Source: a virus (lineage: Duplodnaviria > Heunggongvirae > Uroviricota > Caudoviricetes). Taken from it: 6,501 nt of DNA. Shown here one piece after another: positions 1 to 6,501 of this stretch; within the stretch, counting starts at the first letter, position 1; the number at the start of each line of letters is the position of its first letter. Below the pieces are notes generated by a model that saw only the letters and a list, made by a program, of their open reading frames with translations, did not search any database and had not been told where the DNA came from. Location: IMG/VR virus record IMGVR_UViG_2663762992_000004. One strand, written 5' to 3'. Both the position numbers and the translations under genes were made by a program.

Positions 1-96
1 ATTTTCTCCAGATGCTCTGTATGGTCAATCAAGTATTGGATCATATGCATAATTAATCTTTTAATCAGTTAATAGAATAAAAACCTAGGTAAACAC
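1..96 (+). promoter_or_regulatory. AT-rich leader upstream of the DNA polymerase gene; probable promoter/5' UTR region, with no confident -35/-10 assignment
   Basis: Non-coding AT-rich stretch directly upstream of the 687-aa ORF. A weak Shine-Dalgarno-like AGGT lies about 8 nt before the ATG at 97, and a TAGAAT hexamer at 73..78 is a possible -10. Promoter elements were judged by eye only. Confidence 0.25.
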
Positions 97-2160
97 ATGT
101 CCAATATACTATGGGGCGACCTGGAAACCTATTGCGAAATCCCTATTACGAACGGTACCCATGCGTATGCCGAAGGCGTTGAAGTGATGCTTTTCGCATG
201 GGCTATCAACGACGGGCCAGTAAACGTGTGGGATATCACTGCCGGTGGTGGTATTCCACACGGCTTATACGAAGCAATCGCAGACCCTGAAACCCTGCTT
301 TATTTCCATAACTCTCACTTCGACCGCACCGTTCTGCGTTATGCAATGCCGCGACTGGCACCGCCAGTCGAACGTTGGCGCGACACGATGGTGCAGGCGC
401 TGGCGCACGGTCTCCCGGGGTCTCTGGGGGAACTCTGCGAAGTACTAGGCGTCCCGCAAGACAAAGCGAAGGACAAAGAAGGTAAAGCGCTGATCCAGCT
501 GTTCTGTAAGCCACGTCCGAAAAACAGCAAACTGCGTCGGGCCACCAGTAAAACCCATCCGGAAGAATGGCGGCGCTTTGTTGCTTACGCCGGACTGGAT
601 ATCGAAGCAATGCGTGAAGTCTATAAACGTCTGCCGAAGTGGAATTATCAGGGGACAGAGCTGGCGCTCTGGCATCGTGATCAGCAGATCAACGACCGGG
701 GCGTCTGCATGGACATGCAACTCGCGCGCGCTGCGATCGAAGCGGTAGACCAGGAGCAAAAGCGCCTGGCAAAGCGTACACAGGAAATGACTGATGGCGA
801 AGTGCAGGCAGCCACACAACGGGACGCGTTGATTAAGCACATCGTTGAATCCTACGGTGTGGAGCTACCAGACATGCAACGCAGTACCCTGGAACGTCGT
901 ATGGCCGACCCCGATTTATCATCTGCCGTGAAAGAACTGCTGGCTATCCGCCTGCAAGCCAGTACTACCAGCACCAGTAAATACAAGGCACTGATGAAAG
1001 GCGTAAGCCACGACGGGCGCTTACGCGGTACGCTACAGTTCTGCGGGGCGTCACGTACCGGTCGTTGGGCCGGACGGCTATTCCAGCCCCAGAACCTTCC
1101 CCGCCCTTCACTAAAACAGGAACAAATAGACGAAGGCATCGAAGCACTGAAAGCCGGATGTGCAGACCTGCTGTTTGACAATATCATGGAACTAACCAGT
1201 TCAGCGTTACGTGGCTGCATTATCGCGCCAACAGGCAAAAAACTAGTGGTAAGTGACTTGTCAAACATTGAAGGCCGTATGCTGGCATGGCTGGCGGGAG
1301 AAGAATGGAAACTGAATGCATTCAGAGAGTATGACGCTGGAACGGGTCCGGACTTATATAAACTGGCGTATGCAAAAGCTTTCGATATTGCACCAGATGA
1401 TGTTGATAAACACATGCGTCAGATCGGTAAAGTCATGGAACTCGGTCTGGGTTATGGAGGTGGTGTATCGGCTTTCATCACTTTTGCTCTGGTTTACGGT
1501 CTCGATCTCGACGAGCTGGCGAACGCCGCACTGCCAAACATTCCCCGCGATGTTATCCGCGAGGCAAAAAGCTGGTACGACGAATCGGTTAAGCGTAAGT
1601 CGACCTTTGGCCTGTCCGAGCGTGTATTCATCGCATGTGACTCGCTCAAGCGCCTGTGGCGCAGGGCGCACCCGGCGACCTGCGATTTCTGGTACGAGCT
1701 GGAGCGCACTGTCCGCACAGCAATCGCCACACCGCAAAAAACATTGTATTGCGGCTATCTTAAAATCCGACGTGATGGCGCGTGGCTGCGCATACAGCTA
1801 CCATCCGGACGCGCTGTATGCTACCCGTCTCCGGTTATCGAACAAGGGAATATCACCTACATGGGTGTTAACTCTTATTCGCGTAAATGGCAACGACTCA
1901 AAACCTACGGCGGAAAGCTGGTGGAGAACGTCACCCAGGCGGCCGCCCGCGACGTTCTAGCCAGAAACATGCCGCTGATCGAGGGTGCCGGTTACAGCAT
2001 TGTGCTAACGGTACACGACGAGGTGATCACCGAAGCACCAGACACAGAAGATTTCAACGATAAAGCGCTTTCCGCGCTTCTCTCCACTAACCCCGAATGG
2101 GCACCCGATATTCCGCTGAACGCTGGCGGCTTTGAGGCGTACCACTACAAAAAAGATTGA
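97..2160 (+). CDS. Family A (Pol I / T7-like) DNA polymerase with N-terminal 3'-5' proofreading exonuclease domain, phage type
   Basis: 687-aa ORF. Exo I motif D-x-E in the N-terminus ([10 protein letters not shown]). Polymerase motif A ([19 protein letters not shown]), motif B ([16 protein letters not shown]) and motif C ([11 protein letters not shown]) are present in canonical order. Long ORF with uniform codon usage and no competing frame. Confidence 0.92.
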
Positions 2161-2224
2161 TATAACTCACCTTATCGAGCTATGGCGACATGCTGAATTC
2201 GAGTAAATTAAAGGTACAATACTT

Positions 2225-2986
2225 ATGCAGGAACTAACTGAAATGCCGATCAACTATCCATACCCGAGAGAATCTTTTCCTGACTTTTTGAGGGAGTGTG
2301 GGTTCACCAATTTTTCCCACGAACAGCGTGAGACTTATGACTGCTATCGTTTAACGAATGGCGTAATTGTTAACCTTTACACCACCCGGACCATTCAGTT
2401 TCAAGGGAACCCTCAAGAACGTCCCAATGTTGAAACTGCAATAATGTCCCATTTAGGAACGCCCCCCACGGCAACACCACTAGCCGTAGAACAGCCATCT
2501 GAGCTTCCCAAAAAGATATTCATTGTTCACGGCCATGACCATACTGCAAAGGAACAACTTGAGCTAATCCTTCATAAACTTGGATTACCAGACCATTTCA
2601 TTTTGCAGAATACGGGAGGGACTGGACTCACCATTATTGAAGAGCTTGAACGTGAAATTGGGCAAGGACAAACTGCTACTCGTTTCGGGATTGTTCTTTT
2701 GACACCTGATGATATGGGATACTCAAAGCGCGCCGGTGAAGCAGAAATCCAACCCCGCGCAAGACAGAACGTTGTACTCGAGATGGGTATGCTTCTTTCG
2801 TCCTTAGGGCGCAGCAATGTAGCAATCCTTCAGAAACAGCACCTAGAACAGCCTTCTGATGCTAACGGGATTTTGTATCTGAATTTCAACGACCATGTAC
2901 GTGAAACAGTTCCTCGTCTAGTGCAACGGTTACAAAATTCTGGTTTCGAATTTACACAAGCTCAAATAGCTAACGCTTCCTCGTAA
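2225..2986 (+). CDS. Two-domain cargo protein: N-terminal domain of unknown function (~aa 1-78), Pro/Thr-rich linker, C-terminal TIR-like nucleotide-processing domain (~aa 96-235); candidate defence/abortive-infection effector
   Basis: 253-aa ORF with a weak AGGT Shine-Dalgarno-like element ~9 nt upstream. C-terminal domain shows the pattern KKIFIVHGHD ... IVLLTPDD ... PRARQNVVLEMGMLLSSLGRSNVAILQK, which I recognise as characteristic of the bacterial 'TIR-like' flavodoxin-fold family (Pfam PF10137-type) with a conserved Glu in NVVLEMG. GC is visibly lower than the flanking polymerase gene. The domain call is from motif recognition, not a profile search. Confidence 0.7.
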   Translation: MQELTEMPINYPYPRESFPDFLRECGFTNFSHEQRETYDCYRLTNGVIVNLYTTRTIQFQGNPQERPNVETAIMSHLGTPPTATPLAVEQPSELPKKIFIVHGHDHTAKEQLELILHKLGLPDHFILQNTGGTGLTIIEELEREIGQGQTATRFGIVLLTPDDMGYSKRAGEAEIQPRARQNVVLEMGMLLSSLGRSNVAILQKQHLEQPSDANGILYLNFNDHVRETVPRLVQRLQNSGFEFTQAQIANASS

Positions 2987-3010
2987 TTACCCCCTTATTG
3001 TTGATTACAA

Positions 3011-3036
3011 CCCTGCATTGCGGGGTTTTTTATTTG
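3011..3036 (+). terminator. Rho-independent terminator downstream of the TIR-like gene
   Basis: GC-rich hairpin CCCTGCATTGCGGGG (stem CCCTGC / GCGGGG with one G-U pair and a short loop) immediately followed by TTTTTTATTT, located 25 nt after the stop codon at 2986. Confidence 0.6.
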
Positions 3037-3050
3037 GGAATAAAAACCCT

Positions 3051-3185
3051 ATGTCATTTAAATACCGGGACAGTCCGCTTTATTACCGGACTGCACGGGA
3101 GGCTTTGCGCCTTGAACAGTCCAGCGGGTACGACCGGGCGATGCAGGTCTGGGCCAAAGCGAACGTCGGTTTGATTTTTGTCTGA
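3051..3185 (+). CDS. Possible small ORF (44 aa, MSFKYRDSPLYYRTAREALRLEQSSGYDRAMQVWAKANVGLIFV), hypothetical
   Basis: ATG at 3051 to TGA at 3183..3185, my own translation; it is below the size cut-off of the supplied ORF track. Codon usage is GC-rich like the phage backbone, but there is no clear Shine-Dalgarno sequence. It could instead be untranslated leader carrying a promoter for the downstream genes. Confidence 0.2.
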   Translation: MSFKYRDSPLYYRTAREALRLEQSSGYDRAMQVWAKANVGLIFV

Positions 3186-3221
3186 TGCAGAACATGCGCG
3201 AAAAGCGTAAGGAGGTGGACG

Positions 3222-3416
3222 ATGTCTAATATCGATAATAAAGGTTGGGGGTTCCCCGCCCTGTCGAAAAAAGCACATTTCTTTAATTCGGGGGAAGCCA
3301 TATCACTATGCGGAAAATGGATGTTCACAGGTATCAGGATTGACGAATGGCATGACCATCCTGAGAACTGCGCTATCTGCATGAAGAAACGCAAAAAGCA
3401 GGAAGGCGAAAGCTAA
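3222..3416 (+). CDS. Small hypothetical protein (64 aa) with a Cys/His cluster (C30, H44, H46, C50, C53); possible zinc-binding
   Basis: Strong Shine-Dalgarno AAGGAGG 7 nt upstream of the ATG at 3222. Its stop overlaps the start of the next gene (TAATG at 3414..3418), indicating translational coupling with the VRR-NUC gene. Confidence 0.6.
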   Translation: MSNIDNKGWGFPALSKKAHFFNSGEAISLCGKWMFTGIRIDEWHDHPENCAICMKKRKKQEGES

Positions 3417-3700
3417 TGGCCTATGAACGTGAAAACCTAATCGAAAAGCACCTCGTCGCTGAAGTAAAAAAGGCTGGCGGGGTTGCCTTTAAGTTCGTAT
3501 CTCCCGGTCTCCGCTCGGTACCAGATCGCATTGTTCTGCTACCCGGCGGTCGCATCGTCTTTGTCGAATGCAAAGCACCAGGCAAACCACCACGACCTGA
3601 TCAGTTGCGCGAGCATGAACGTCTGCGAAAACTGGGCTTTACCGTGGTAGTACTGGATAGTAAGGAGCTTTCATGTATATTAGGCAAAAAATTACAATAG
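3416..3700 (+). CDS. VRR-NUC domain nuclease (PD-(D/E)xK superfamily), phage-associated
   Basis: 94-aa ORF with the pattern PDRIVLLPGGRIVFVECKAPGKPPRPDQLREHERLRKLGF, typical of VRR-NUC proteins (D ... E-x-K catalytic core followed by a conserved Q/E-rich helix). It is translationally coupled to the upstream small ORF. The last ~15 codons become AT-rich, suggesting the native 3' end was remodelled by the adjacent insertion. Confidence 0.82.
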   Translation: MAYERENLIEKHLVAEVKKAGGVAFKFVSPGLRSVPDRIVLLPGGRIVFVECKAPGKPPRPDQLREHERLRKLGFTVVVLDSKELSCILGKKLQ

Positions 3701-3715
3701 GAGTCTGTGTAAGCT

Positions 3716-4633
3716 ATGGCTAAGCAACAAACGAAAGAAATAAACCAAGATGATGTAAAAGACAACAAAAATATGCCACCTCATATATGCGGCATTATTA
3801 TGCCAATTGCGGACATAGAAGGTTATCCCACTGGACATTGGAGAAATGTTCATGACATTATTTGTGAAGCATCAAATGATGCCGGATTCAAGGCAAATTT
3901 GGTAAGTTCAGATGATGATGTTGCAGTAATACAAAAACGAATTGTTCAAAATCTTTATGAAAACCCCATAGTTGTTTGCGATATAAGTGCTCGAAACGCT
4001 AATGTAATGTTTGAATTAGGAATGCGTCTCGCATTTGACAAACCGACCGTAATTATTAAGGACGAGCGCACTCCTTATAGCTTTGACATTTCATCAATTG
4101 AACATTTAGAGTACCCTTCGGATTTAAGATACCAATCAATCAATTTATTCAAAGAAAGACTTGCGAGCAAGATAAAAGAAACATATTTAAAGTCAGTAAC
4201 TGATCCTGAATACACAACATTCCTCAAACATTTTGGCACTTTCAAAGTTGCACAACTAGACCAGAAAGAAGTATCAGAAACTGAGTATCTGGCATCTGAG
4301 ATTAAAGATATCAAATCATTATTGATATCTCTTAGGGCAACAGCAACGACAAAATCCAGATTTTTCGACTCACCGAAAAATTACTCGCAGCAGGAAATTG
4401 ACAACTCTGTAGATATTATTAAAAATGGAGTTGCCAGTTATACTATAAGGAGTGAAGGATTTAGTATATCAAAATCAGCACTAGAAAAGTTACGCCAAAG
4501 ACTACACAACGCAGGATTTCAAGTCGAGCAAATAGTATTGACAGGAAAAGAAGTAATTATTCATCTGTCATCACCTTTAATAAATGAAGAAGAAAATATT
4601 TTTAAAGATGCAATAGTAACAGCACTATTATAA
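3716..4633 (+). CDS. AT-rich cargo protein: N-terminal nucleoside 2-deoxyribosyltransferase-like / TIR-like flavodoxin-fold domain (~aa 24-116) plus C-terminal region of unknown function (~aa 120-305); candidate defence or counter-defence effector
   Basis: 305-aa ORF with AGGAG Shine-Dalgarno ~8 nt upstream. N-terminal pattern ICGIIMPIADIEGYP ... NPIVVCDISARNANVMFELGMRLAFDKPTVIIKD matches the D...N-x-V-x-F-E-x-G...K-P signature of nucleoside 2-deoxyribosyltransferase-like domains, with Glu100 as the putative catalytic nucleophile. GC is markedly lower than the neighbouring genes, and Lys/Asn/Ile-rich codon usage points to foreign origin. Domain call is by motif only. Confidence 0.7.
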   Translation: MAKQQTKEINQDDVKDNKNMPPHICGIIMPIADIEGYPTGHWRNVHDIICEASNDAGFKANLVSSDDDVAVIQKRIVQNLYENPIVVCDISARNANVMFELGMRLAFDKPTVIIKDERTPYSFDISSIEHLEYPSDLRYQSINLFKERLASKIKETYLKSVTDPEYTTFLKHFGTFKVAQLDQKEVSETEYLASEIKDIKSLLISLRATATTKSRFFDSPKNYSQQEIDNSVDIIKNGVASYTIRSEGFSISKSALEKLRQRLHNAGFQVEQIVLTGKEVIIHLSSPLINEEENIFKDAIVTALL

Positions 4634-4645
4634 ATAACATTTTTA

Positions 4646-4680
4646 AAACAACAAAAGGTCTAAATTGGCCTTTTGTTGTT
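4646..4680 (+). terminator. Intrinsic terminator-like hairpin downstream of the AT-rich cargo gene
   Basis: Perfect 12-bp inverted repeat AACAACAAAAGG (4646..4657) / CCTTTTGTTGTT (4668..4679) around a 10-nt loop. The 3' arm is itself T-rich and is followed directly by the helicase Shine-Dalgarno TAGGAG. The AT-rich stem means it may act as a weak or bidirectional terminator, or as an insertion scar. Confidence 0.5.
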
Positions 4681-4695
4681 TAGGAGCCATATTAT

Positions 4696-6090
4696 ATGCC
4701 CCCAAAATATATACCTCGCCCCTACCAAGTTCTCATTATCAACCACGAAACCGAAACCCTGCGCGGCAACATCTGGGCGGGGATGGGAATGGGTAAAACC
4801 GTGGCAACGCTCACTGCGCTGGAAGATCTCTTTATGGCAGGGGCAGAAACATGCCCCGCACTGGTCCTCGCGCCGCTGCGCGTGGCTGCCAGCACATGGC
4901 CGGATGAAGCACTGAAGTGGGGACATTTGCGCAATATCGAGGTGCAGCCAATTATTGGTAATGCCAAAGCGCGCTCTATGGCGCTGACGAACAGCAACGC
5001 AAGCGTGTTCACCATCAACTACGATAACCTTGTCTGGCTGATTGAAGAATTGGGAGAACGATGGCCGTTCGGTACTGTCATTCCAGATGAAAGCACCCGG
5101 CTAAAATCCTTCCGGCTGCGCGGTGGTGGTAAGCGCGCGGCGGCGCTGGGCAAAGTGGCGCATAAGTATGTCCGGCGCTGGATAAATCTCACCGGTACGC
5201 CAGCACCGAACGGCCTGGTAGATTTGTGGGGACAATCGTGGTTTGTGGACCAGGGGCAACGTCTCGGGCGCACTTACGGCGCGTTTACCTCACGCTGGTT
5301 CAACTCGATACAGTTTCCGGGGCAGAGCTGGACCAAACTGGAGCCTTTTGCTCACTCACAGGGTGAAATACAGCGAGCGTTAGCCGATGTAACCCTCTCG
5401 CTGGATGCGGCCGACTGGTTCGATATCAAAGACCCCATCCATAACGTAATCCGCGTGGATATGCCACCGAAGGCCCGTCAGCAGTATCGTGAAATGGAAA
5501 AGGAAATGTTCCTCGAGCTGAATGGCGAAGGCATCGAAGCACCGAACGCCGCGGCAAAGACACTGAAGTGTCTGCAAATCGCCAGCGGCGCAGTATACAC
5601 AGATGACACCGGAAGTTGGTCAGAACTGCATGACACCAAACTACAGGCGCTGGACAGCATACTGACCGAAGCAGCTGGCGCACCTGTGCTGGTTGCTTAT
5701 CACTGGAAACACGATCTTGAACGCTTGCTTAAAGCATTCCCTCGCGGTCGTCACCTCGACCAGGATCCACAGACACTGCGCGACTGGAATTCCGGAAAGA
5801 TTCCTGTTCTCTTTGCACACCCAGCCAGCGCGGGCCACGGCCTGAACATGCAGGACGGCGGAAATATACTGGTATTTTTCTCACACTGGTGGGACCTGGA
5901 GCAATATCAGCAAATTATTGAACGTATCGGCCCCACCAGGCAGATACAGGCCGGACACAATCGTCCGGTATTTATTCACCACATTATTGCTGCCGACACT
6001 ATGGATGAAATGGTGATGGAGCGGCGCAACTCAAAACGAACAGTGCAGGACATCCTGCTCGATGCCATGAAAAAGAGAGGTATAGCATGA
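4696..6090 (+). CDS. SNF2-family (DEAD/DEAH-like superfamily 2) helicase/ATPase, phage replication type
   Basis: 464-aa ORF with Walker A AGMGMGKT, motif II DESTRLK (DExx-type) and motif III LTGTP in the N-terminal RecA-like lobe, and a C-terminal helicase lobe (HPASAGHGLNMQDGGNILVFFSHWWDLEQYQQIIERIGPTRQ). TAGGAG Shine-Dalgarno 8 nt upstream. The polymerase / VRR-NUC / SNF2 arrangement is common in phage replication modules. Confidence 0.9.
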   Translation: MPPKYIPRPYQVLIINHETETLRGNIWAGMGMGKTVATLTALEDLFMAGAETCPALVLAPLRVAASTWPDEALKWGHLRNIEVQPIIGNAKARSMALTNSNASVFTINYDNLVWLIEELGERWPFGTVIPDESTRLKSFRLRGGGKRAAALGKVAHKYVRRWINLTGTPAPNGLVDLWGQSWFVDQGQRLGRTYGAFTSRWFNSIQFPGQSWTKLEPFAHSQGEIQRALADVTLSLDAADWFDIKDPIHNVIRVDMPPKARQQYREMEKEMFLELNGEGIEAPNAAAKTLKCLQIASGAVYTDDTGSWSELHDTKLQALDSILTEAAGAPVLVAYHWKHDLERLLKAFPRGRHLDQDPQTLRDWNSGKIPVLFAHPASAGHGLNMQDGGNILVFFSHWWDLEQYQQIIERIGPTRQIQAGHNRPVFIHHIIAADTMDEMVMERRNSKRTVQDILLDAMKKRGIA

Positions 6091-6287
6091 GCGAGAAACC
6101 CGACGATTTACTCACCCCGGATGAAGTATGCCAAAAGTTAGGTATTACACAGAAAACGCTATGTGAGTGGAATATTAAGCATCGTCATCGGGCTATCCTG
6201 GCACCAATTCGTTTCAGTGCAAAAGTAGTTCGTTATGAGCGCCGAAATATCGACGCTTTTATTCAAAAATGTCGCAGCCAGTATTAA
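6087..6287 (+). CDS. Small helix-turn-helix DNA-binding protein, AlpA/excisionase-like (HTH_17-type) regulator
   Basis: 66-aa ORF whose ATG overlaps the helicase stop (ATGA at 6087..6090), indicating translational coupling. LTPDEVCQKLGITQKTLCEW is a helix-turn-helix, followed by VRYERRNIDAFI, resembling the conserved C-terminal strand/helix of AlpA/Xis-like proteins. Confidence 0.65.
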   Translation: MSEKPDDLLTPDEVCQKLGITQKTLCEWNIKHRHRAILAPIRFSAKVVRYERRNIDAFIQKCRSQY

Positions 6288-6501
6288 CCTCGCCGCCGTA
6301 GCAATGCCACCTGCGCAAGTATGCTCCGCTCGTGAGCCTCGAAAGCTTCGCGCTTCAACGCAATCTCTTCCTGTAAAATCTCATCAGAAAAGTCGTAATG
6401 TTCTGCCATCGGGTCATCTGACTTGCTGGAGTGGTGNNGGCNNNGGNNGAAACCGGCGAAGAGCCGCAGACCACGCGAGTATTGCGGGTAAAACTGCAAA
6501 C
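6284..6501 (-). CDS. Hypothetical protein, 3' (C-terminal) part only; the gene probably continues beyond the window end
   Basis: Minus-strand ORF open to the window edge; the initial M in the supplied translation is probably an artefact of truncation. It contains ambiguous bases (N at 6437-6438, 6442-6444, 6447-6448). Its stop overlaps the stop of the + strand HTH gene (convergent, tail-to-tail). No recognisable domain in ...MAEHYDFSDEILQEEIALKREAFEAHERSILAQVALLRRRG. Confidence 0.35.
   Translation of the reverse strand, partial: LQFYPQYSRGLRLFAGFXXXXHHSSKSDDPMAEHYDFSDEILQEEIALKREAFEAHERSILAQVALLRRRG

What the first reader, a model, noticed from the sequence alone, without database searches (positions are those of the whole stretch)
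3716..4633. Strongly AT-rich cargo gene encoding an NDT-like/TIR-like domain fused to a large uncharacterised C-terminal region
This ORF has conspicuously lower GC than everything around it (by eye roughly mid-30s % versus low-to-mid 50s for the polymerase and helicase; exact values need computing), indicating recent horizontal acquisition. Its N-terminal domain contains PIVVCDISARNANVMFELGMRLAFDKPTVII, matching the active-site signature of nucleoside 2-deoxyribosyltransferase-like enzymes (catalytic Glu in F-E-L-G, followed by K-P). This domain type occurs in defence contexts, for example as an effector domain in some retron systems, and is related in fold to TIR and SLOG domains. The ~190-aa C-terminal region has no motif I recognise. 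A single gene of this kind wedged between the VRR-NUC and helicase genes and followed by a hairpin is a strong candidate for an undescribed defence or counter-defence effector acting on nucleotides, NAD+ or nucleotide-derived signals.
Basis: partly seen in the sequence, partly recalled or inferred. Interest (0 to 1): 0.8.

Follow-up and report, generated by a model that had tools for sequence, protein, structure and literature searches.

The report
Orphan Thoeris-type effector with hypervariable tail
This AT-rich prophage cargo gene encodes an uncharacterised but very widespread protein whose conserved enzyme-like half matches the effector of a recently described bacterial anti-phage system (type VIII Thoeris), joined to a fast-evolving tail instead of that system's signal sensor; this makes it a strong but untested candidate for a new single-gene immune protein.

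Summary
ORF 3716-4633 (305 aa) exists, has 34.4% GC against 54% for its neighbours, carries the quoted motif, and is followed by a strong hairpin.

It sits in a 1.05-kb replaceable segment (3661-4713) of an E. coli prophage. Related prophages carry other AT-rich cargo in that segment.

The protein belongs to a large family with no Pfam domain (about 900-4,800 clusters at 50% identity, many phyla). It always occurs alone and is always more AT-rich than its flanks.

- **Head (residues 23-207):** extremely conserved, dN/dS 0.02.
- **Tail (residues 208-305):** hypervariable, ACT-like fold.

The head has an NDT/DNPH1-like fold with an invariant Glu100. It is clearly homologous (hhalign 97.6%, E 3e-12) to the N-terminal domain of proteins that pair this head with a TPR-S domain and sit in ThsB-TIR operons. 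That architecture matches the type VIII Thoeris effector ThsI.

This protein has neither the TPR-S sensor nor a TIR partner.

Best reading (about 0.5): a stand-alone abortive-infection effector, a nucleotide or NAD+ N-glycosidase gated by its variable tail. Defence and enzymatic activity are both untested. It is a new variant of a known kind.

The parts
3661..4713 (.). Replaceable cargo segment of the prophage. It includes the last ~13 codons of the VRR-NUC gene, the target gene, the hairpin and the first codons of the helicase gene.
   Evidence: Similarity to three related E. coli prophages stops at 3660. In two of them it resumes at 4714 and 4732; in the third no downstream match was detected within the queried stretch (to 5000). 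Those prophages carry other cargo here. The segment is 33.9% GC.
3716..4633 (+). Target gene, 305 aa. RefSeq annotates it as WP_001551510.1, 'hypothetical protein'.
   Evidence: ORF, annotation, GC 34.4%. It has thousands of homologues and no Pfam domain.
3782..4336 (+). Conserved head, residues 23-207. It comprises an NDT/DNPH1-like alpha/beta core (about 23-135) plus a conserved helical extension containing the YTTFLKHFG motif.
3980..4045 (+). Predicted active-site stretch D89-I-S91-x2-N94-x-N96-x3-E100-L-G102-x-R104...P110.
   Evidence: D89, N94, N96, E100, L101, G102, R104 and P110 are invariant across the family and in Gram-positive phage homologues; S91 is invariant within the family alignments but not in the Gram-positive homologues. 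D89, S91, N94, N96, E100, L101, G102 and R104 align with invariant positions of ThsI-like proteins. The catalytic role is inferred from the NDT superfamily, not tested.
4337..4630 (+). Hypervariable tail, residues 208-305. It comprises a low-confidence linker (211-227 below pLDDT 50) followed by a beta-beta-alpha-beta-beta-alpha ACT-like domain (about 231-304).
4641..4685 (+). Strong hairpin between the target's stop codon and the helicase ribosome-binding site. It may act as a terminator or insulator that travels with the cargo.
   Evidence: Folding energy -21 kcal/mol, z -5.2. It lies inside the replaceable segment. It was not called a canonical terminator.
3654..3681 (+). Weak sigma-70-like promoter match (TGGATA-16-TATATT) straddling the left boundary of the cargo.
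   Evidence: The match scores 9/12. The number of such sites in the region is no higher than in shuffles, so this is only a lead.

Best explanation
The gene is a self-contained prophage-borne immune effector. Its conserved head is the same enzyme module as the effector domain of ThsI-like proteins (type VIII Thoeris). That module has an NDT/DNPH1-like fold and is predicted to cleave an N-glycosidic bond in a nucleotide or NAD+, using Glu100 as nucleophile. ThsI carries a TPR-S domain that is thought to read a TIR-made cADPR signal. This protein instead carries a small, fast-evolving ACT-like tail. I infer that the tail keeps the head off and releases it, probably through oligomerisation, when it meets a phage-specific cue. 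Nucleotide or NAD+ depletion then aborts the infection.

Shown here: the homology, the fold, the solo occurrence, the mobility, the AT-richness and the head/tail contrast in evolutionary rate.

Inferred: the enzymatic activity, the substrate, the sensing role of the tail, and the defence phenotype itself.
For: Head homology to ThsI-like proteins:
- tblastn against plasmids, E 7e-8.
- Pairwise BLASTP, E 8e-15 over residues 20-225.
- hhalign between the two family profiles: 97.6% probability, E 3.4e-12, 180 columns. The match ends where TPR-S (PF20308) begins.
- These relatives sit in TIR-TIR-[head+TPR-S]-TIR operons with ThsB_TIR domains.
- One of their TIRs matches the TIR of the tested Yersinia type VIII system at E 6e-12.
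- The preprint 10.64898/2025.12.03.692087 reports that type VIII protects against T2/T6 and becomes toxic when cADPR is supplied.

Defence-like population features:
- No recurrent neighbour in 77 loci from different species.
- A single-gene integron cassette bounded by attC-like repeats in Vibrio parahaemolyticus.
- Found only in temperate phages, and antisense to the early lytic genes in Streptococcus SM1 and Staphylococcus SA13.
- Lower GC than its flanks in 76 of 76 loci.
- Patchy: 24 of 5,426 complete E. coli genomes.
- Some neighbours match defence models such as LmuA, ThsA, DolB, a dCTPase and methyltransferases.

Head/tail contrast: dN 0.009 against 0.118, and dN/dS 0.02 against 0.47. 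Tail identity is at random level.
Against: - There is no experimental evidence for this family. No paper was found under its accession.
- It matches no PADLOC 2.0 system or candidate model apart from a partial TIR-effector hit.
- The other cargo genes at the same prophage site have no PADLOC hits, so the site is not demonstrably a defence hotspot.
- Many neighbours in environmental genomes are housekeeping genes, and the defence-neighbour fraction was not measured against a background.
- Tail dN/dS is below 1, so positive selection is not shown; relaxed constraint would look the same.
- The enzymatic activity of ThsI itself is still only hypothesised in the preprint.
- In this prophage the gene is co-directional with early replication genes, and only a weak promoter match was found. 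Expression in the lysogen is therefore unproven.
Confidence: 0.5

Rival explanations
1. It is a counter-defence gene. The phage-encoded enzyme would destroy or sequester a host immune signal (for example cADPR-type molecules or cyclic nucleotides), or deplete a cofactor that host defences need. The variable tail would adapt it to different hosts.
For: The gene sits among early replication genes and is transcribed in the same direction as them. NDT/TIR-like folds act on the same chemical class as immune signals. Its closest relative is part of a cADPR-signalling system, so the head may bind related ligands.
Against: Most homologues are in bacterial chromosomes, small islands or integron cassettes rather than phages. 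None is in a virulent phage among 50,697 phage records. In Gram-positive prophages the gene is antisense to the lytic genes, the usual arrangement for genes expressed in the lysogen. The homologous head in ThsI is the toxic effector, not a signal degrader.
Confidence: 0.12
2. It is one half of a two-gene TIR signalling system with the TIR-like gene 730 bp upstream (2225-2986). That would make it a Thoeris-like pair in which the TIR protein makes a signal and this protein executes.
For: A PF10137 TIR gene (PADLOC candidate PDC-S35, E 1e-108) lies in the same transcriptional direction in this window. The head's relatives do work with TIR proteins. The 90%-identical homologue P0002 also has this TIR gene upstream.
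Against: The TIR gene is kept in related prophages that carry other cargo instead of the target. The Klebsiella aerogenes prophage has the target at the same site but no TIR gene. No ThsB-type or PF10137-type TIR was found anywhere within about 8 kb in 80 other loci, and no neighbour recurs. The TPR-S domain thought to read the signal is absent. PF10137 TIRs are known as NADase effectors rather than signal makers (Pfam description).
Confidence: 0.07
3. It is a toxin-like or addiction/competition module, or another lysogen-benefit gene unrelated to phage sensing. The variable tail would be just a poorly constrained oligomerisation or stability domain.
For: The gene is solo, mobile and AT-rich. 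Tail dN/dS of 0.47 fits relaxed constraint. One E. coli strain carries an IS1-disrupted copy, which fits a costly gene.
Against: No antitoxin-like partner recurs next to it. A constitutively toxic solo gene would not persist as a single-gene integron cassette. The tail keeps a confidently predicted compact fold (pLDDT 89) and a constant length of about 97 aa across the family, which argues that it is functional.
Confidence: 0.15
4. It is a phage nucleotide-metabolism or DNA-hypermodification enzyme, for example a dNMP hydrolase that reshapes the precursor pool for phage replication.
For: The best structural matches are DNPH1/Rcl and MilB, which are nucleotide N-hydrolases in metabolic or biosynthetic pathways. 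The gene lies between replication genes.
Against: It is not a core gene of this prophage lineage: only 24 of the 37 E. coli genomes with this prophage region carry it, and the site holds unrelated cargo in others. It has no associated modification genes and no recurrent neighbours. It occurs in integron cassettes and non-phage islands. A hypervariable tail is not expected for a metabolic enzyme.
Confidence: 0.05

Closest known systems
ThsI, the effector of type VIII Thoeris ('CMP hydrolase + TPR'; preprint 10.64898/2025.12.03.692087). Represented here by the TPR-S proteins of Acinetobacter plasmids pAR1 and pC54_003.
   Same: The whole conserved head (target residues 20-208) is homologous. hhalign gives 97.6% probability and E 3.4e-12, and BLASTP gives E 8e-15. 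The two share invariant residues in the predicted active site and the D-P-x-Y-T-x-F-L motif, and the domain boundary falls at the same point.
   Different: There is no TPR-S/DUF4071 sensor domain; a ~97-aa hypervariable ACT-like tail takes its place. There is no co-inherited ThsB TIR gene. The protein is about 300 aa rather than about 410. I did not have the sequences of the tested ThsI proteins. Their equivalence with the Acinetobacter proteins rests on shared architecture and on a TIR match of E 6e-12.
NDT superfamily N-glycosidases: DNPH1/Rcl (2'-deoxynucleoside 5'-phosphate N-hydrolase), MilB CMP hydrolase, nucleoside 2-deoxyribosyltransferase (PF05014)
   Different: No member reaches the Pfam cut-off (13.2 bits against 28.8 for the target). 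No PDB sequence is matched even with a family profile. The head has an extra ~70-residue conserved helical extension plus the tail. The spacing between the conserved Asp and Glu is shorter than I recall for NDT and Rcl; that comparison is from memory and was not tested.
CAP12/Pycsar TIR-like NADase domain (PF10137) and CBASS TIR effectors
   Different: The Pfam score is below the cut-off (16.2 against 24.7). Profile comparison with a true PF10137 family gives 3% probability over 32 columns. The H-G-H-D motif of the first strand is absent.
Retron Ec86 (Eco1) effector with an NDT-like N-lobe
   Same: It is another immune effector built on an NDT-like domain and held inactive until phage infection (preprint 10.1101/2023.08.16.553469).
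   Different: There is no reverse transcriptase or msr/msd next to the target or its homologues. No PADLOC retron model matched at E up to 1.
CapRel-type fused sensor-effector proteins (analogy from my own knowledge, not tested here)
   Same: Both are single prophage-borne genes with a conserved toxic enzymatic N-terminal part and a highly variable C-terminal part. In CapRel that part autoinhibits the enzyme and recognises a phage protein.
   Different: The enzyme domain is unrelated (toxSAS versus NDT-like). The resemblance is architectural only.

Membership tests
Type VIII Thoeris effector ThsI | N-terminal 'CMP hydrolase'-type effector domain | tested here: met
   hhalign between family profiles gives 97.6% probability, E 3.4e-12, over 180 columns. 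BLASTP gives E 8e-15.
Type VIII Thoeris effector ThsI | C-terminal TPR (TPR-S, PF20308) sensor domain | tested here: not met
   Neither the target nor 50 relatives have a TPR or PF20308 hit. The tail folds as a small ACT-like domain. The Acinetobacter relatives do have PF20308, at E 1e-19.
Type VIII Thoeris effector ThsI | Encoded next to a ThsB-type TIR gene | tested here: not met
   No ThsB-type TIR was found in 80 loci and no neighbour recurs. The PF10137 TIR gene upstream in this window is not co-inherited with the target.
Type VIII Thoeris effector ThsI | Activation by canonical cADPR; protection against phage | not testable with these tools
   This needs growth, plaque and biochemical assays. 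The preprint reports these only for complete type VIII systems.
NDT superfamily (PF05014; DNPH1, MilB, NDT) | Significant match to the family profile | tested here: not met
   The target scores 13.2 bits, E 0.1, against a cut-off of 28.8. 32 of 50 relatives match below threshold, best E 6.3e-5. A family profile finds no NDT-family chain in the PDB sequences.
NDT superfamily (PF05014; DNPH1, MilB, NDT) | Flavodoxin-like three-layer fold most similar to NDT-family structures | tested here: met
NDT superfamily (PF05014; DNPH1, MilB, NDT) | Catalytic Glu nucleophile at the start of the helix after the central strand | tested here: inconclusive
   E100 in F-E-L-G is invariant in all alignments, including distant phage homologues and ThsI-like proteins. 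Its equivalence to the NDT/DNPH1 nucleophile was not checked by structural superposition.
NDT superfamily (PF05014; DNPH1, MilB, NDT) | N-glycosidic bond cleavage or transfer activity | not testable with these tools
   This needs enzymology.
CAP12/Pycsar TIR-like domain (PF10137) | Profile match at family level | tested here: not met
   The Pfam score is 16.2 bits against a cut-off of 24.7. hhalign against the neighbour's PF10137 family gives 3.2% probability and only a 32-column local motif. A PADLOC TIR-effector model matches partially at E 1.1e-6.
Prophage accessory cargo ('moron') at a variable site | Conserved flanks with alternative gene content among related prophages | tested here: met
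   Similarity breaks at 3660 and resumes at about 4714-4732 in two of the three related prophages. Three alternative cargo sets were seen. A Klebsiella aerogenes prophage has the target's homologue at the same site.
Prophage accessory cargo ('moron') at a variable site | Deviant base composition | tested here: met
   The cargo segment is 33.9% GC against about 54% in the flanks. Alternative cargo is 33-36% GC in two of three cases.
Prophage accessory cargo ('moron') at a variable site | Own promoter and terminator, expression from the lysogen | tested here: inconclusive
   A strong hairpin lies downstream, but there is no canonical terminator and only a 9/12 promoter match, no better than shuffles. 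No expression data were available.

The most novel reading that the evidence does not exclude
This is the founding example of a very widespread, TIR-independent single-gene immune family derived from a Thoeris effector. The ThsI-type nucleotide or NAD+ N-glycosidase head has swapped its cADPR-reading TPR-S domain for a hypervariable ACT-like tail. That tail would itself recognise phage proteins or infection-specific metabolites, so sensing and killing are combined in one ~300-aa protein that spreads on prophages, integron cassettes and small islands across at least eight phyla.
Probability: 0.4. Interest if true: 0.75.

Novelty: new variant of a known kind. Interest (0 to 1): 0.65.

Why it matters
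If the gene is defensive, it would add a compact single-gene system to the bacterial immune repertoire. The system would be extremely widespread: about 900 close and up to 4,800 total clusters at 50% identity.

It would also show how a signal-dependent Thoeris effector can become a self-sensing protein by swapping its sensor domain.

The ~190-residue head is conserved at 50-65% identity from E. coli prophages to Acidobacteriota and Bacteroidota. Working out its chemistry here would therefore also settle the still-unknown activity of the type VIII Thoeris effector.

The natural series of tails on near-identical heads is a ready-made set of specificity variants for finding what triggers the protein.

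Tried and rejected
- **Direct family assignment failed.** Pfam, NCBIfam and PHROGs gave nothing useful for the target; the PHROG families it matches have unknown function. PDB sequence searches with the protein and with a family profile found nothing relevant. A PDB search with the ThsI-like profile found only TPR proteins, so no structure of the head exists.
- **Identity with the neighbouring PF10137 TIR family** was rejected (hhalign 3%).
- **A conserved partner gene** was sought in 77 loci and not found. ThsB-type and PF10137 TIR neighbours were sought and not found.
- **The alternative cargo at the same prophage site** has no PADLOC hits, so I do not call the site a defence hotspot.
- **Neighbour scans** (PADLOC and Pfam on 145 neighbours) showed some defence and integrase genes among many housekeeping genes. 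There was no background for comparison, so I treat this as weak support only.
- **Shuffling of discrete tail modules among divergent heads:** no pair with divergent heads shared a similar tail. Weak in-register profile matches between some tail clusters suggest rapid divergence rather than unrelated origins.
- **Literature searches** for the accession, for NDT-like prophage defence genes and for integron-cassette screens found no description of this family. The integron glycosylases Dag1/Dag2 appear to be an unrelated type of enzyme (DNA glycosylases with a Lys/Asp catalytic pair), although no sequence comparison was made. Burroughs and Aravind 2020, which first predicted the TPR domain's role in TIR signalling, could not be retrieved.
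Full report
**1. The observation**

Its GC content is 34.4% (third codon positions 25.8%). The family-A DNA polymerase has 54.1%, the SNF2 helicase 54.6%, the VRR-NUC gene 49.1% and the upstream TIR-like gene 45.1% (sliding profile). The quoted peptide is residues 84-114, with F99-E100-L101-G102 and K109-P110. The 62-nt spacer before the helicase gene holds a 14-bp-plus hairpin at about 4641-4685. It folds at -21 kcal/mol, z = -5.2 against shuffles. The simple terminator scan did not call it.

**2. Where the window comes from**

The window is 100% identical to a prophage of E. coli (for example NZ_AP022003, integrated next to yfhL) and to three deposited phage genomes, vB_EcoM-689R2, -611R5 and -606R2. 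RefSeq calls the target WP_001551510.1, 'hypothetical protein'.

Thirty-seven complete E. coli genomes carry this prophage region. Only 24 of 5,426 carry the target, all at 99.8% identity or more. One copy is split by an IS1 element.

In related prophages, sequence similarity stops at window position 3660, forty bases before the VRR-NUC stop codon. In two of the three relatives it resumes at 4714 and 4732, just inside the helicase gene. In place of the target, those prophages carry one of the following:
- a DUF6338 gene plus a small ORF;
- a 265-aa hypothetical gene on the other strand;
- an Arc/Arc/Rha set.

Two of these three alternatives are also AT-rich, at 33-36% GC. None matches a PADLOC model.

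A Klebsiella aerogenes prophage of the same lineage has a 75%-identical homologue at the same site but lacks the TIR gene.

The gene is therefore replaceable cargo, not a core phage gene.

**3. The protein family**

The protein has thousands of relatives. There are 4,466 clusters at 90% identity with E up to 1e-3. Among representatives at 50% identity there are 4,823 with E up to 1e-3, 2,062 up to 1e-10 and 909 up to 1e-30. None has a precomputed Pfam domain. Source names are 'hypothetical protein' or, spuriously, 'RNA helicase'.

A pattern scan of one genome per species found 335 loci in Pseudomonadota, Bacteroidota, Verrucomicrobiota, Acidobacteriota, Planctomycetota, Lentisphaeria, Nitrospinota, Desulfobacterota and Bdellovibrio-like bacteria. 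Head identity to the E. coli protein is 46-69%.

More distant homologues (22-31% identity) occur in temperate phages of Streptococcus, Staphylococcus, Dorea and Latilactobacillus.

**4. Two parts with opposite behaviour**

Alignments show an almost invariant block at residues 23-207, followed by about 97 residues that cannot be aligned between subgroups.

- **Identity:** when heads are 70-80% identical, tails are 18% identical, the same as shuffled tails (17%). Even at 90-100% head identity the median tail identity is 44%. Against the target itself, P0002 has head 98% and tail 77%; P0004 has head 92% and tail 56%.
- **Clustering:** 245 tails fall into 144 BLAST clusters, 127 of them singletons, while all heads form one cluster. 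A few tail clusters retain weak in-register profile similarity, up to 89% probability.
- **Codon level (window against P0002):** the head has dN 0.009, dS 0.47 and dN/dS 0.02. The tail has dN 0.118, dS 0.25 and dN/dS 0.47.

The tail evolves about thirteen times faster at replacement sites. However, dN/dS does not exceed 1 on average, so positive selection is not demonstrated.

**5. What the head is**

Direct profile searches are all below threshold. PF10137 gives E 0.011 and PF05014 gives E 0.1. Nothing useful came from NCBIfam. The PHROG families matched have unknown function. A PADLOC CBASS TIR-effector model matches residues 54-134 at E 1.1e-6. Across 50 relatives, 32 match PF05014 weakly (best 6.3e-5) and 6 match PF10137.

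The AF2 model (mean pLDDT 72) shows a beta-alpha-beta flavodoxin-like core, a long helix, a poorly modelled but highly conserved stretch (YTTFLKHFGTFKVA) and a further helix. Structure searches gave:
- **Foldseek against the PDB:** more specific. The top hits are almost all DNPH1/Rcl, the 2'-deoxynucleoside 5'-phosphate N-hydrolase of the NDT superfamily (best E 4.2e-4, TM about 0.6 on the target). SARM1 TIR appears lower down.

Profile comparison with the neighbouring gene's PF10137 family gives only a 32-column local match (N-V-x-x-E-x-G-M ... H-L-E-x-P-S-D) at 3% probability.

The head is therefore NDT/TIR-like at superfamily level and closest in shape to DNPH1. It is not a member of either Pfam family.

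D89, N94, N96, E100, L101, G102, R104, P110, F123, D124 and Y133 are invariant out to the Gram-positive phage homologues.

**6. The decisive link**

A protein search of plasmids found 26%-identical matches over residues 17-225. They lie in 407-aa 'tetratricopeptide repeat-containing' proteins of Acinetobacter plasmids, next to TIR genes. Details:
- **Operon structure:** TIR, TIR, [head + TPR], TIR.
- **Domains:** the TPR part is PF20308 'TPR-Sensor' (E 1e-19, residues 201-309). Two of the TIRs are ThsB_TIR (E about 3e-20).
- **Pairwise BLASTP:** target against the pAR1 protein gives E 8e-15 over target residues 20-225 and residues 1-211 of the plasmid protein.
- **Profile-profile:** hhalign between the two families gives 97.6% probability, E 3.4e-12, 180 columns. 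It covers target 20-208 against 1-191, stopping exactly where TPR-S begins.
- **Shared invariant residues:** the first-strand Cys, D89, S91, N94, N96, E100-L-G102, R104, F123-D124, Y133 and the D-P-x-Y-T-x-F-L motif.

This architecture is what a December 2025 preprint (10.64898/2025.12.03.692087) names type VIII Thoeris. In it a ThsB TIR makes canonical cADPR on infection, and the effector ThsI carries a 'CMP hydrolase' domain plus TPR. According to the preprint, the systems protect E. coli against T2 or T6, and external cADPR stops growth of cells carrying them. The enzymatic activity of ThsI is only hypothesised to be manipulation of the nucleotide pool.

The TIR sequence of the tested Yersinia system, taken from the preprint's supplement, matches the TIR immediately upstream of the Acinetobacter effector at E 6e-12. 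I did not have the tested ThsI sequences. Their equivalence with the Acinetobacter proteins is therefore an inference from architecture and this TIR match.

**7. What the tail is**

**8. Context across bacteria**

I compared gene neighbourhoods in 77 loci from different species. No neighbour family recurs: the maximum was 7 loci, at scattered positions. Typical spacers of about 110 bp lie on both sides. No ThsB-type or PF10137 TIR gene lies within about 8 kb.

Specific contexts seen:
- the nin region of Klebsiella lambdoid prophages;
- next to int/xis of an Enterobacter prophage remnant;
- a Pseudomonas integrative element;
- in Vibrio parahaemolyticus, a single-gene integron cassette bounded by attC-type repeats in an array of at least 21 cassettes, which also holds a BstA_C gene;
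- in Streptococcus phage SM1 and Staphylococcus phage SA13, the gene points against the surrounding early lytic genes, the usual arrangement for genes expressed in the lysogen.

All 45 phage-database hits appear to be temperate or prophage-derived phages. This is my judgement from their names; lifestyle was not checked for each record.

In 76 of 76 loci the gene has lower GC than its flanks: median 38% against 52.5%.

Among 145 immediate neighbours in 28 loci, single proteins matched LmuA, ThsA-STALD, DolB, a dCTPase, HEC-09, two PDC candidate families and DNA methyltransferases. There were also three integrases and two TIR_2 proteins, but many housekeeping genes as well. I could not measure this against a background.

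**9. Interpretation**

The best-supported reading is a stand-alone immune effector. It would consist of a ThsI-type N-glycosidase head whose control module has been exchanged from a cADPR-reading TPR-S domain to a small, rapidly diversifying tail. This removes the need for a TIR partner. Architecturally it resembles fused sensor-effector proteins such as CapRel (analogy only, from my own knowledge).

Established here:
- homology of the head to ThsI-like effector heads;
- the NDT/DNPH1-like fold;
- solo occurrence and mobility;
- the compositional signature;
- the contrast in evolutionary rate between head and tail.

Not established:
- any enzymatic activity or substrate;
- a sensing role for the tail;
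- expression in the lysogen;
- protection against phage.

Rivals:
- **Counter-defence** is disfavoured by the non-phage contexts and by the antisense orientation in Gram-positive prophages.
- **A two-gene system with the upstream TIR** is disfavoured because the two genes are inherited independently.
- **A phage nucleotide-metabolism role** is disfavoured by the gene's cargo status and its variable tail.
- **A toxin-like or other lysogen-benefit role** with a merely unconstrained tail cannot be excluded.

**10. Novelty and score**

I found no description of this solo family in the literature I could search, and it is absent from PADLOC 2.0. Its nearest characterised relative, ThsI, is itself less than a year old and biochemically unresolved.

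I rate it a new variant of a known kind: a Thoeris-type or NDT-like immune effector with a new sensor module and no signalling partner.

Interest is 0.65. The family is very large, the inferred domain swap is a clean evolutionary statement, and the natural tail variants make the hypothesis directly testable. The central claim, defence, rests entirely on inference.

Noticed in passing
window 2225-2986 (+): A second nucleotide-centred cargo-like gene: a 253-aa protein with a PF10137 CAP12/Pycsar-type TIR domain (E 3e-31). It matches the PADLOC candidate system PDC-S35 over its full length (E 1e-108) and phrog_16442. It is 45% GC, kept in the related E. coli prophages whatever the cargo at 3661-4713, but absent from the related Klebsiella aerogenes prophage.
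   Followed up: partly
window 3051-3229 (+): RefSeq annotates a frameshifted 'ANR family transcriptional regulator' pseudogene here. The same frameshift is annotated in all four related prophages examined, so it may be a programmed or mis-called feature rather than decay.
   Followed up: no
NZ_AP045179.1 1259561-1261333 (E. coli JNEC-KY203): In one of the 24 E. coli genomes that carry the target gene, the gene is interrupted by an IS1 element. This could indicate a fitness cost.
   Followed up: no
window 6437-6448: Seven non-ACGT (masked) bases lie inside the 3' part of the tyrosine integrase gene on the minus strand, which runs off the end of the window.
   Followed up: no
L011 1-14822 (Vibrio parahaemolyticus JANFTP010000010): This is a chromosomal integron array with at least 21 attC-type repeats spaced 460-1,900 bp apart. 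One cassette holds a homologue of the target (7001-7822). Another holds a BstA_C-domain protein (11681-12553), a known abortive-infection family.
   Followed up: partly
L007 14894-15130 and L009 14156-14440 (Klebsiella lambdoid prophages carrying homologue P0035): The same prophages that carry a family member in their nin region also encode a small protein with the Acb2/Tad1 hairpin domain (PF24729). That domain belongs to a family of anti-CBASS/anti-Thoeris signal sponges.
   Followed up: no
L103 3962-6806 and L104 2957-5803 (Acinetobacter plasmids pAR1, pC54_003): These are Thoeris type VIII-like operons with three separate TIR genes around one head+TPR-S effector, on small plasmids. In pC54_003 the operon lies directly next to a RelE/HigA toxin-antitoxin pair.
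   Followed up: partly
window 1-6501 against E. coli genomes: 5,173 of 5,426 complete E. coli genomes match some part of the window, but only 37 match 80% or more of it. I did not determine which short part is nearly universal.
   Followed up: no
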